Shown here piece by piece: positions 46,815 to 64,000 of a stretch of DNA of 64,000 nucleotides. Position 1 is the first letter of the stretch; every line of letters begins with the position of its first letter. Both the position numbers and the translations under genes were made by a program. Source of the stretch: Planctomycetota bacterium (GTDB lineage: Bacteria; Planctomycetota; UBA1135; UBA2386); contig JBKAGP010000001.1 in NCBI GenBank assembly GCA_046290465.1, forward strand, positions 928,001-992,000. The letters are read 5' to 3'. The notes below the pieces were generated by a model, which saw only the letters and a list, made by a program, of their open reading frames with translations, was not told the DNA's origin and did no database searches.

Positions 46815-48467
46815 TCACCCGCGCGCTCCTCGCCATCGCGACGCCGCGGCTGCTGCCAGCCCCAGCCCCTCGCCCGCAGAGGGCACGAATCCGCCGAGCG
46901 CCCCCGCCACCTGATCGCGAGGCTGGTAGAGCAGCACGTCGGCACCGACGTTCCCCACCATCATCGCCAGGCTGCTGTAGTGCTCGGGGAGCTTGGACAA
47001 GAACTCGGCCGCATCCTTCGCGCCCGGAATCCACGAGATCCCGGCCATGCTTCCGATCGACGCGACGCGCTGCCACACGCCAGCCGGTAGCGCACCACCG
47101 ATCACCAGCTTGGCAATCTCGGCACAGCCGAGCACGACGCACTCGGGCCAGGTCAGAGCTCGCCGCCCCATGCCGTCGGGCTTGATGTCGAACCGGAACT
47201 GCTCGTCCCAATGAACCCAGTTGCGGATCACGCGGATACTGGGAATCGGCAGCCACGATCGATGGTCCCACCAGCTCGTCCACAACGCGGTGGGCACCAT
47301 GTTCTCGTAGTAGAGGATGTCCGCGAGGTCCCGCAACCACGGTCGAGCGACCCAGCCCAACAGGAAGTTGACGATCGTGCGCGGCAGTGACAGACCCGGC
47401 AAGCCTCCGTAGATCGGCACAACGTGGTAGCCGACCACCATGCCACTCTGCAGGGCCGCCTGGATCGAGACTTCCACGGTATGCAGGTGCGAGAGTGCGG
47501 AAGGGTTGTTGCCCCGATTGGTGAATGGAACCAGATTGCTCCACACTGCGGGCCCACCGAACTTGTCGCGCAGCAGGTGCAAGCGGACGTAGAATGCACC
47601 ACCCGTGCGTGTCTTCTTCCTCTTGAGCGCCGCCCACGCGGGGTTCGTGATTGCACCCGGAGCCGCACCACCCGGAATCGGATAGCCCCTCAGGACCGCC
47701 TGCATTCCAGTGGCGAAGCCACCATGGCTGAGTGCCGGGGAGGCATGCAGGATCCTCGCGTGCAGGCCGGCCGGCACCTCGCCCATTGCCCATGATGCGG
47801 CCGAGACTAGCCCCGTCCCCGCCCCGGCGACCGCGTCGGTCACGACGTTGCCGACCAACGGGATGCGTTGGCGCTGGGCGACGGCGACCGGCGGCGCAGC
47901 CTCCTGCCGTTGCGCTGCCGGTTGCCGGGCGCGCGATCCCAGATGCGCGGCACGAGTTCCGTAGACGTCCGCCTCCCGTTCGAGGCGCGGGTCGTCGTTG
48001 ATCGGCGTGCCGCCGACGGAGGACGTTCGGGGAACCCGGCCCTGCAGCTGCTGCACGACGTGCCAGCCCTCGTGCGGCAGGTGGCTCTCCGCGCCCGGGG
48101 CCAGATGGATGCGATTGCCCTGAGCCACGGCTGACGCCTGGAGGCTGGATGGCAAGGTCGAGTTGCGATGCACACGGACGTGGCCGAGGTCCAGCCCCGA
48201 GAGCTCCTCGAGGCCTTGTCGCAAGCCTCGCCCCAGGCCAGTTGCATCAAGGACCGAGGTTTCGTCGGGATCCTTCGGATGTGCCGGAACGCGCATCAGG
48301 CTGGCAACCGCAGGAGTCCCGTCGGCGTCCGCCGATCGCGATACGTTCGCACGGGCGACGGAGTCCTGCCGGGTCCCCCTCCGCCTGCTGCCGGTTTCTG
48401 TTCTCGGTTCCGAGCGACGCATGGATCGTTGTTGCGAGTCTAGCCGATTCACCTGTCGTGCCTGCAT
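46815..48467 (-). CDS. eCIS-associated DUF4157 (eCIS core domain) protein with C-terminal His-Me (Endonuclease_NS_2-like) nuclease
   Basis: GLRQGLEELSGLDLGHVRVHRNS..ASAVAQGNRIHLAPGAESHLPHEGWHVVQQLQGRV..INDDPRLEREAD (DUF4157). YVRLHLLRDKFGGPAVWSNLVP..N..H..VE..YHVVPIY (nuclease-like). Start uncertain (48467 or 48422). Confidence 0.85.
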   Translation of the reverse strand: MQARQVNRLDSQQRSMRRSEPRTETGSRRRGTRQDSVARANVSRSADADGTPAVASLMRVPAHPKDPDETSVLDATGLGRGLRQGLEELSGLDLGHVRVHRNSTLPSSLQASAVAQGNRIHLAPGAESHLPHEGWHVVQQLQGRVPRTSSVGGTPINDDPRLEREADVYGTRAAHLGSRARQPAAQRQEAAPPVAVAQRQRIPLVGNVVTDAVAGAGTGLVSAASWAMGEVPAGLHARILHASPALSHGGFATGMQAVLRGYPIPGGAAPGAITNPAWAALKRKKTRTGGAFYVRLHLLRDKFGGPAVWSNLVPFTNRGNNPSALSHLHTVEVSIQAALQSGMVVGYHVVPIYGGLPGLSLPRTIVNFLLGWVARPWLRDLADILYYENMVPTALWTSWWDHRSWLPIPSIRVIRNWVHWDEQFRFDIKPDGMGRRALTWPECVVLGCAEIAKLVIGGALPAGVWQRVASIGSMAGISWIPGAKDAAEFLSKLPEHYSSLAMMVGNVGADVLLYQPRDQVAGALGGFVPSAGEGLGLAAAAASRWRGARG

Positions 48468-48725
48468 GCAACCCTGTTGCAGCCTCGCGACAGCACGGCG
48501 GCCTCGGATCCTCCTGGCGCGACACGCGTCGGGACTTCGTAGGCACACTGCATGCACAGCTCAGGTAGACCGGACCGGCTTCCAGATGGACGATTCGTCG
48601 CGAAATGGAGAACTCCGCAGACCGGCTGGTTGCGACCCATACGCATACCGCCATGCCAGCCTCGCTCGGGTTGCTCGACCACAGCTACCAACCGCCGCGT
48701 AAGGCACAACGACAGGATCCACGAC

Positions 48726-63745: not shown

Positions 63746-64000
63746 TACCGCCCCTCGGGATGCGCCACGTAGAACGGGTAGATCAGACTGTGGCGCATGC
63801 GATGGCCATCGAGCGCATAGCGGATCTCGATGTCGATCCGGTTGTCCACGCTGTCACTCGGCACGGCCCGGACCTCCAGATCCCGGATCCGGCGCTCCCA
63901 CATCGTCAGTGCGTGGTGCACCTCCTCCTCGACACGATGGACCAGTTCAGGAGTCCGGGGAAGGAACACGTATTCGTGCAGGTCACAGCCGAAGCGCGGC
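63745..64000 (-). CDS. GPW/gp25 family baseplate protein (Afp9), 5'-truncated by window edge
   Basis: PRFGCDLHEYVF...ALTMWERRI..V...IDIEIRY...SLIYPFY. Confidence 0.9.
   Translation of the reverse strand, partial: PRFGCDLHEYVFLPRTPELVHRVEEEVHHALTMWERRIRDLEVRAVPSDSVDNRIDIEIRYALDGHRMRHSLIYPFYVAHPEGR

What the first reader, a model, noticed from the sequence alone, without database searches (positions are those of the whole stretch)
46815..64000. Divergent Afp/PVC-type extracellular contractile injection system (eCIS) with its own effector cassette in a probable planctomycete
Seen: six tightly coupled minus-strand genes (overlapping start/stop codons) in the order gp25 - baseplate J - WTDxNxHDPG protein - gpI-like - FxAGQV protein - tape measure, then PAAR and, about 3 kb downstream, a DUF4157 protein. 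Known: this order and these motifs match Afp9-Afp11-Afp12-Afp13-Afp14 of Serratia Afp / Photorhabdus PVC-like eCIS, and DUF4157 is an eCIS-enriched domain. Inference: a complete eCIS whose tube, sheath and VgrG genes lie beyond the right edge. I know of no characterised eCIS from Planctomycetota. The proteins depart from consensus at normally conserved motifs (e.g. HRLRGVSCHDVERL versus the usual HK.RAV..WDYERL), which suggests a distinct sub-lineage.
Basis: partly seen in the sequence, partly recalled or inferred. Interest (0 to 1): 0.85.

Follow-up and report, generated by a model that had tools for sequence, protein, structure and literature searches.

The report
Injection machine with an unfused baseplate
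An alga-associated planctomycete carries a complete phage-tail-like injection machine from an apparently unrecognised branch in which one baseplate protein is still encoded as two genes, probably the state before the fusion seen in the well-studied machines.

Summary
The eCIS is real and complete. Terminator, sheath, two tubes, Afp7 and VgrG lie just beyond the window, a divergent AAA ATPase follows, and all ORFs are intact. It is not Afp/PVC (Ia) or Ib. Sheath, VgrG and Afp11 trees place it outside Ia+Ib; the Afp11 and VgrG trees also join it to Ia+Ib against lineage II.

Its hallmark is a split Cis12. The 'WTDxNxHDPG' and 'gpI-like' genes are the gp6 and gp7 halves of Afp12. They are separate ORFs in two other planctomycetes and in 27 of 27 informative metagenome loci, probably mostly actinobacterial. 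The 'Afp13' is a Cis19-crown homologue.

The 'effector cassette' reduces to one credible cargo, a DUF4157-His-Me nuclease; the orthologous locus in G395 has a different toxin tail. eCIS in Planctomycetota are already catalogued in paper supplements, so the host is not the novelty. The genome also has a second CIS and T6SS genes. This scan had no look-alike on record. Verdict: new variant of a known kind; function untested.

The parts
63745..64000 (-). 3' part of the gp25/Afp9 wedge gene. The operon continues beyond the window's right edge in G000:C1 (minus strand unless noted): gp25 start 992389; VgrG 992423-994213; Afp7 994215-994889; tube 2 995068-995511; tube 1 995528-995977; sheath 996002-998275; conserved hypothetical 998272-998988; Afp16 998985-999587; then on the plus strand a 244-aa putative regulator 999820-1000554 and the AAA ATPase 1000455-1002515
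   Evidence: GPW_gp25 E 1e-22; Phage_base_V/GPD; CIS_tube 1e-38; gp19 2e-34 and 1e-41; Phage_sheath_1/1C; Pvc16_N 1.5e-26; AAA 1e-23; same order in G395
60965..63745 (-). Afp11/Cis11 baseplate J (gp6A), 926 aa
   Evidence: Baseplate_J; best PDB match AlgoCIS Alg11 E 2e-27; groups with lineage-I Cis11 at 98/96
59427..60968 (-). Cis12a: stand-alone gp6-like half of Afp12/Cis12 (gp6B), about 505-513 aa
   Evidence: Matches the Cis12 N-terminus in PDB; groups with the gp6 part of fused Cis12 at 100/99
58522..59430 (-). Cis12b: stand-alone gp7-like half of Afp12/Cis12, 301 aa
   Evidence: Family profile hits Anabaena Cis12 residues 438-588 and 1166-1275 (E 9e-8), Alg12 and SalCis12; the top 9 Foldseek hits are baseplate entries of contractile machines, none at E <= 0.001
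56841..58532 (-). Crown-type (Cis19/eBAP4-like, TssK-like shoulder) baseplate appendage, 563 aa, without adhesin repeats
   Evidence: HHalign 99.7% to the metagenome family over 435 columns; that family hits crown All3314 at E 7e-6; Foldseek top hit is the 7b5h crown, E 5e-6
51934..56844 (-). Afp14-like tape measure, 1636 aa, with an in-frame 195-bp x3.2 repeat at 54262-54891
   Evidence: CIS_TMP E 9e-8 at the C-terminus; tandem repeat; 1119 aa in G395 and about 410-450 aa in metagenome loci
51522..51821 (-). PAAR spike tip, 99 aa, placed behind the tape measure
   Evidence: PAAR_motif E 9e-25; same position in G395 and G185
46815..48557 (-). Putative cargo toxin: DUF4157 (HEGWH) + His-Me nuclease (RLHLL...SNLVP...RGNN) + hydrophobic tail; true start uncertain (ATG 48422 plausible)
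   Evidence: eCIS_core E 4e-9; Endonuclea_NS_2 E 5e-4, below its cut-off; atlas lead 0.86; motifs align with relatives' nuclease tails; only DUF4157 in the genome

Best explanation
The locus encodes a functional, phage-tail-derived contractile injection system, acquired horizontally, from a deep branch that is sister (or stem) to lineage I. Shown by homology: a tube of two gp19 proteins grows from an Afp7/VgrG/PAAR hub inside a single-protein sheath, is capped by Afp16 and measured by an Afp14-like tape. The wedge is built from three separate polypeptides, gp6A (Cis11), gp6B (Cis12a) and gp7 (Cis12b), where Afp, PVC and AlgoCIS fuse the last two. Inferred: crown trimers on the baseplate bind the target. 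The AAA ATPase loads the DUF4157-nuclease into the tube. Particles leave on cell lysis, contract on contact and inject the nuclease, most likely into neighbouring microbes on an algal surface. The unfused wedge is most simply the ancestral state, with one gp6B-gp7 fusion on the stem of Ia+Ib.
For: All core genes are intact and coupled. Synteny is the same in G395 and, apart from a VgrG in two ORFs and a contig break, in G185. Thirteen of the 39 metagenome loci are long enough to show sheath through Cis12b, all in the same order, some near-duplicates. The split is found in 27 of 27 informative loci. Trees: Ia+Ib excludes the group in sheath (SH-aLRT 99), VgrG (100) and Afp11 (100/99). The group plus lineage I separates from lineage II at 100/98. 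In the paralogue tree lineage-II gp6A is the outgroup (98/98), and fused Cis12 is one clade (99/95) beside Cis12a. Lineage-II loci with two gp6 genes keep a separate tail gene. Xu 2022 describes Alg12, Pvc12 and Afp12 as gp6+gp7 chimeras and two DUF4157 proteins as tube cargo. Only one borderline hydrophobic segment occurs in the structural proteins. Codon adaptation is at or below about the 5th percentile of the genome except for the tube, and 0 of 14 same-genus genomes match the sheath.
Against: No particle, expression or toxicity data. The split group is not strongly monophyletic: 79/91, 50/18 and 68/39, and unresolved. Planctomycete rows have long branches. Two trees are unfinished 'quick' trees. 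The AU test against Ib+split is only p 0.038, with groups named after seeing the tree. The Ia/Ib/II labels are my own, from gene order and taxon, on about 30 reference loci. The nuclease hit is below the Pfam cut-off, and no immunity or lysis gene was identified. Mode of action cannot be read from sequence: related systems are extracellular, thylakoid-anchored or T6SS-like.
Confidence: 0.66

Rival explanations
1. An ordinary subtype-Ib eCIS that diverged quickly and split Cis12 secondarily; its position outside Ia+Ib is a long-branch or GC artefact.
For: The best PDB matches of Afp11 are Ib systems. Gene order sheath-tube-tube is Ib-like, and the crown is an Ib-associated part. Planctomycete branches are long, and several Ib rows have odd residue make-up. 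Nachmias 2026 lists actinobacterial eBAP4 loci among the Afp11/12-type baseplates.
Against: Short-branched metagenome members also fall outside Ia+Ib in four trees. Ib+split as one clade is rejected at p 0.038. A fission needs one more event than retention.
Confidence: 0.17
2. Same branch, but it works inside or on the producer (cytoplasmic, as in Streptomyces, or membrane-anchored) and is not released.
For: A gene with two hydrophobic segments follows PAAR (50921-51505). The crown lacks adhesin repeats. Most relatives appear actinobacterial. No lysis gene was identified.
Against: The membrane gene has no homologue in G395, G185 or any other fetched locus. The DUF4157 tail differs between G000 and G395, as expected for toxins aimed outward.
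Confidence: 0.12
3. A decaying relic that no longer makes particles.
For: Low codon adaptation, eroded motifs, a repeat expansion in the tape measure and a hydrolase remnant inside the island. G185's VgrG is in two ORFs.
Against: No internal stop in any of the 21 ORFs translated. Coupling is tight. Three other runs from two samples carry the region at about 99% identity with no indel listed. Tube and sheath have the best codons among the structural genes.
Confidence: 0.04
4. A prophage tail or part of a classical T6SS.
For: The genome has T6SS genes (TssM at C1:2107234, TssC at C1:2113244).
Against: Those genes are 1.1 Mb away. The locus has Afp16, Afp11, Afp14 and DUF4157 and a one-protein sheath. 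No head or packaging family was hit among the proteins scanned.
Confidence: 0.01

Closest known systems
AlgoCIS of Algoriphagus machipongonensis and Anabaena tCIS (AlgoCIS is dbeCIS subtype Ib; PDB 7aeb, 7b5h)
   Same: Long Cis11, Cis12 domains, crown/Alg19-type appendage and DUF4157 cargo; Ib-type reference loci share the sheath-tube-tube order and contiguous VgrG.
   Different: Cis12 is two genes and lacks the central extension. No Cis13 or Cis6 homologue was recognised in the gene order. The crown is short. The locus lies outside the Ia+Ib clade in sheath, VgrG and Afp11 trees. In planctomycetes PAAR sits behind the tape measure and the ATPase is divergent.
Serratia Afp / Photorhabdus PVC (subtype Ia)
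   Same: Core gene set and the order Afp9-11-12-fibre-14.
   Different: One sheath instead of three; tube 1 follows the sheath; Afp12 split; crown instead of an adenovirus-like Afp13; Ia forms a separate 100/99 clade.
Lineage II CIS with two gp6 genes (Halogeometricum pHBOR03, Burkholderia THE68; IIa/IIc-like by Chen's description) and the Streptomyces CIS (IId)
   Same: Separate gp7 'phage tail protein'; two gp6 genes; the Foldseek top hit of Cis12b is the Streptomyces baseplate entry 9gtp, E 1e-3.
   Different: Those with two gp6 genes have a split VgrG, and lineage II generally lacks Afp14. Cis12a groups with lineage-I Cis12, not with lineage-II gp6B.

Membership tests
eCIS superfamily (Chen 2019; Geller 2021) | Clustered tube, sheath, VgrG, gp25, baseplate J, PAAR, terminator and AAA ATPase | tested here: met
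eCIS superfamily (Chen 2019; Geller 2021) | No capsid/terminase/portal and no T6SS membrane complex at the locus | tested here: met
   None among the locus and flank proteins scanned; TssM and TssC lie 1.1 Mb away
eCIS superfamily (Chen 2019; Geller 2021) | Particles released and acting outside the producer | not testable with these tools
   Needs EM and killing assays
Lineage I (Ia+Ib) | Falls inside the Ia+Ib clade of the Afp11 tree | tested here: not met
   Ia+Ib 100/99 excludes it; same; reference set is my own sample
Lineage I (Ia+Ib) | Afp14 tape measure and contiguous Afp8 | tested here: met
Lineage I (Ia+Ib) | Single fused Afp12 (gp6+gp7 parts) | tested here: not met
   Two ORFs in G000, G395, G185 and 27 of 27 metagenome loci
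Lineage I (Ia+Ib) | Afp6 plug gene | tested here: inconclusive
   No DUF5908 hit among ORFs scanned; ORFs under 70 aa in the 180-bp gap between tube 2 and Afp7 were not scanned
Subtype Ia (Afp/PVC) | Several sheath genes behind tube 1, as in the Serratia locus fetched, and an eBAP1 adenovirus-type fibre | tested here: not met
   One sheath against three; crown-type appendage
Lineage II | Afp11 in the lineage II clade; Afp14 absent | tested here: not met
   Separated from all 21 lineage-II rows at 100/98; CIS_TMP present
eBAP4 (crown) baseplate type of Nachmias 2026 | Crown-like N-terminal anchor domain | tested here: met
   the paper's own eBAP HMMs were not run
eBAP4 (crown) baseplate type of Nachmias 2026 | Afp11/12 present and no separate Tail_P2_I gene | tested here: not met
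   Separate gp7 gene whose family neighbours Tail_P2_I clusters at 0.92-0.93 in the atlas (definition)
DUF4157 eCIS-associated toxins | N-terminal DUF4157 with HExxH, C-terminal toxin domain, 3' position | tested here: met
   the nuclease hit is below the Pfam cut-off
DUF4157 eCIS-associated toxins | Toxicity and loading into the tube | not testable with these tools
   Bench test needed

The most novel reading that the evidence does not exclude
These loci form a third major CIS branch, in uncultured planctomycetes and probably Actinomycetota, that preserves the step between lineage II and lineage I. It already has the tape measure, one-piece VgrG, long Cis11 and crown, but not yet the gp6B-gp7 fusion that produced Afp12. 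Its structure would show how the fibre-binding gp7 module, a proposed hotspot of CIS evolution, worked as a free subunit. The planctomycete sub-branch has its own regulator-ATPase unit and interchangeable toxin tails.
Probability: 0.55. Interest if true: 0.72.

Novelty: new variant of a known kind. Interest (0 to 1): 0.6.

Why it matters
Current schemes divide eCIS into lineages I and II (Chen 2019) or into two baseplate types, one with Afp11/12 and no Tail_P2_I gene, the other with Tail_P2_I and largely no Afp12 (Nachmias 2026). This branch fits neither scheme and orders the events that made the lineage-I baseplate. It escapes Pfam for Cis12a, Cis12b and the crown, so catalogues will under-count or mislabel it. 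It also shows that an alga-associated planctomycete carries genes for three contractile systems (two CIS and a T6SS), although Chen 2019 reported that eCIS and T6SS rarely share a genome.

Tried and rejected
Metagenome scan with the two-sequence crown alignment: 536 pattern hits, none confirmed. Word searches with the crown and Cis12b alignments found 1 and 6 proteins. These are sensitivity limits, since later found the relatives.

Complex prediction of two crown N-terminal parts with Cis12b: no answer, score 0.00; not used for or against.

Sequencing runs: no RNA holder listed. The pieces shown from independent runs do not bridge the Cis12a/b junction; only X1, possibly the source, spans it.

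A conserved programmed frameshift that re-fuses Cis12a and Cis12b was considered and is unlikely. The junction frame differs among G000 (1- or 4-nt overlap), G395 (8-nt overlap) and G185 (3-nt gap).

P0051 (1599 aa) was treated as a repeat artefact. The weak G187 hit is a 406-aa protein matched over part of the profile only. The two Cereibacter plasmid hits (E 7e-4) were not followed up.

The second AU test (planctomycete trio + Ia) did not finish. Rfam found nothing in the window. No tRNA gene lies within 40 kb of the island. Viral contigs was not scanned successfully. Paper searches for a described split-Afp12 lineage found none.

Full report
1. Observation. The window is G000:C1:928001-992000 of a 6.59-Mb, 70% GC single-contig genome. 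Beyond the right edge the operon continues with VgrG, Afp7, two gp19 tubes, one sheath, a hypothetical gene and Afp16. A divergent pair follows: a 244-aa putative regulator and an AAA ATPase. None of the 21 ORFs translated has an internal stop. Pfam, NCBIfam and PHROGs scans of 26, 26 and 16 locus and flank proteins hit no capsid, terminase, portal or T6SS membrane-complex family.

2. Host and distribution. A pilin gene near the locus clusters at 90% with proteins named Planctomycetota, and the genome has 15 PSCyt1 matches. The best-matching sequencing run is labelled algae metagenome and may be the source; two other samples hold the DNA at about 99% identity. The sheath matches 0 of 14 same-genus genomes and 6 of 60 relatives. 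All locus genes lie at or below about the 5th percentile of genome codon adaptation, except tube 1 (15th), so horizontal acquisition is inferred. In the phylum, CIS_tube occurs in 45 of 401 genomes and CIS_TMP over its cut-off in 4 of 401, both counts including G000. CIS loci are therefore not rare in planctomycetes, but this type is. The Cis12b profile hits 4 of 401 (G000, G395 and G185 strongly; G187 weakly), and the crown hits 2 of 339 order genomes. Many of these genomes are incomplete, so these are 'not found', not 'absent'.

3. The split Cis12. The WTDxNxHDPG protein (Cis12a) matches the N-terminal gp6 part of Cis12/Afp12/Pvc12. The next protein (Cis12b) had 28 representatives among 1.84 billion. 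A 24-sequence profile matches the gp7 part of Anabaena Cis12 (residues 438-588 and 1166-1275, E 9e-8), Alg12 and SalCis12, and only weakly the Streptomyces subunit (E 0.007). The AlphaFold model (pLDDT 80.6) retrieves baseplate entries of contractile machines at ranks 1-9, but none at E <= 0.001. An 8-sequence sub-alignment found 39 metagenome loci among 499 pattern hits. In 27 of the 39 a Cis12a hit was also present, and in 27 of 27 the two are separate ORFs. Thirteen loci are long enough to show sheath-tube-tube-Afp7-VgrG-PAAR-gp25-Cis11-Cis12a-Cis12b; most continue with crown, a 410-450 aa tape measure and AAA. Some are near-duplicates. Their taxonomy rests on thin data: an atlas cluster of 66 members, commonest Actinomycetota among the 24 with a phylum, and one Gaiellaceae name.

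4. Phylogeny. References were loci; the Ia/Ib/II labels are mine, from gene order and taxon. Sheath (71 rows, quick tree): Ia+Ib is one clade at SH-aLRT 99 without the planctomycete trio (100) or the metagenome group (97), and their mutual order is open. Afp11 C-terminal domain (46 of 54 rows, 8 similar metagenome rows dropped; careful tree): Ia+Ib 100/99; split group plus lineage I against 21 lineage-II rows 100/98; split group itself 79/91. VgrG (38 rows after dropping 8 metagenome and 2 Bacteroidota loci; quick tree): Ia+Ib 100, nine split rows 95, G185's fragment outside, and lineage II apart at 89. gp6 paralogues (42 of 71 rows; careful tree): Cis12a joins the gp6 part of fused Cis12 at 100/99, fused Cis12 is one clade at 99/95, and Cis11 of the split group joins lineage-I Cis11 at 98/96 with lineage-II gp6A as sister at 98/98. 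Forcing Ib+split together costs 24.4 lnL, p-AU 0.038, a post hoc test. Lineage-II loci with two gp6 genes keep a separate tail gene, and phage T4 gp6 and gp7 are separate (recalled). One fusion on the stem of Ia+Ib is the simplest reading. Whether the split group is one clade or a grade is not resolved.

5. Crown, tape measure, cargo. The FxAGQV protein is homologous over 435 columns to the metagenome family (HHalign 99.7%), whose profile hits the Anabaena crown All3314 (E 7e-6). Its model is modest (pLDDT 59), but Foldseek ranks the crown first (E 5e-6) and TssK lower. It lacks the coiled-coil tail of the metagenome forms. The tape measure is conserved with G395 mainly at its ends and holds a 65-aa repeat; a longer particle is possible but untested. 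The DUF4157 protein is the only one in the genome. It keeps HExxH and a His...Asn...Asn nuclease pattern that aligns with the nuclease tails of large genes behind the ATPase in L103 and L105. G395 has a DUF4157 gene at the same place with an unrelated tail, and G185 has a patatin-like gene beside PAAR. This looks like exchangeable cargo (inference). The membrane-protein ORF, the hydrolase remnant, the 242-aa plus-strand ORF and the 223-aa ORF have no match in any other fetched locus, so they are not supported as effectors or immunity.

6. Mechanism. Shown: gene content, homology of each part, conservation of the split. Inferred from AlgoCIS, tCIS and PVC: assembly, ATPase-assisted loading, release by lysis, crown-mediated binding, contraction and injection. 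Target and mode of action are unknown. I put released eCIS of a stem branch at about 0.66, fast-evolving Ib at 0.17, intracellular or anchored at 0.12 and relic at 0.04.

7. Literature seen. Chen 2019 (PMC6899500): passages, section 10 and a supplement search; no Planctomycetes in the eCIS table S3; the genome list was cut when stored. Geller 2021 (PMC8213781): passages and supplements, 3 of 15 files not searched; two Brocadia operons. PMC12210884: passages and supplements; Brocadia and a Phycisphaerales MAG. Nachmias 2026 (PMC12923769): passages, section 7 and supplements, one PDF unreadable; no 'Planctomyc'; several actinobacterial eBAP4 loci that may belong to this branch, unchecked. Xu 2022 (PMC8894135): passages and section 13. 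Weiss 2022 (PMC8894136), PMC12998442, PMC11937823 and PMC9230969: passages. Author names for these papers are partly recalled. Searches found no description of a split-Afp12 branch or of a characterised planctomycete eCIS. Subscription papers, supplementary figures and bioRxiv supplements were not visible and could contain one.

8. Verdict. A real, intact CIS. It works like a lineage-I eCIS but fails the membership tests for Ia, Ib and II. New variant of a known kind; interest 0.6.

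Noticed in passing
G000:C1:1588907-1614745 (L056/L057): Second, lineage-II-type CIS operon: sheath, tube, CIS_tube, separate spike genes, gp25, baseplate J, DUF6519 fibre and a VWA protein, next to a mobile element at a tRNA-Met. Very long branches in the trees.
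   Followed up: partly
G000:C1:2107234-2114143: Classical T6SS genes TssM and TssC, so the genome carries genes for three contractile systems; completeness of the T6SS was not checked.
   Followed up: partly
window 48726-49454 (+): 242-aa Ala/Thr-rich ORF with the best codon adaptation of the island after the tube and no homologue found. G395 has an unrelated Ala/Lys-rich ORF behind its ATPase (L059:9492-10106). Possibly abundant cargo or accessory proteins; unexplained.
   Followed up: partly
window 50029-50640 (+): Alpha/beta-hydrolase (TAP-like) remnant that seems to keep its signal-peptide-like start and its C-terminal end in one frame while lacking the middle.
   Followed up: partly
window 50921-51505 (-): 194-aa ORF with two hydrophobic segments and a possible lipobox right behind PAAR; not conserved in relatives.
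   Followed up: partly
L001:8820-9554; L059:6599-7285; L080:505-1332; L066: An unnamed 244-aa family (8 of 301 planctomycete genomes including G000) sits near the CIS ATPase in three split-type loci and also in the lineage-II locus of G127; a candidate planctomycete CIS regulator.
   Followed up: partly
L086, L089, L095, L103, L105, L106, L113, L120, behind the AAA gene: Large 1400-2000 aa genes with variable tails (nuclease in L103 and L105, DUF4157 in L086), several with similar N-termini: a polymorphic cargo family.
   Followed up: partly
G160:C43, G381:C1, G269:C3 (family f40): One planctomycete family carries both an Ib-type eCIS (G160) and lineage-II types (G381, G269).
   Followed up: partly
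window 62250-62300 (Cis11 middle) and the crown C-terminus: Short Trp/Leu/Arg-rich, possibly amphipathic helices are kept in G000 and G395 Cis11 and in all three planctomycete crowns; possible membrane contact, untested.
   Followed up: no
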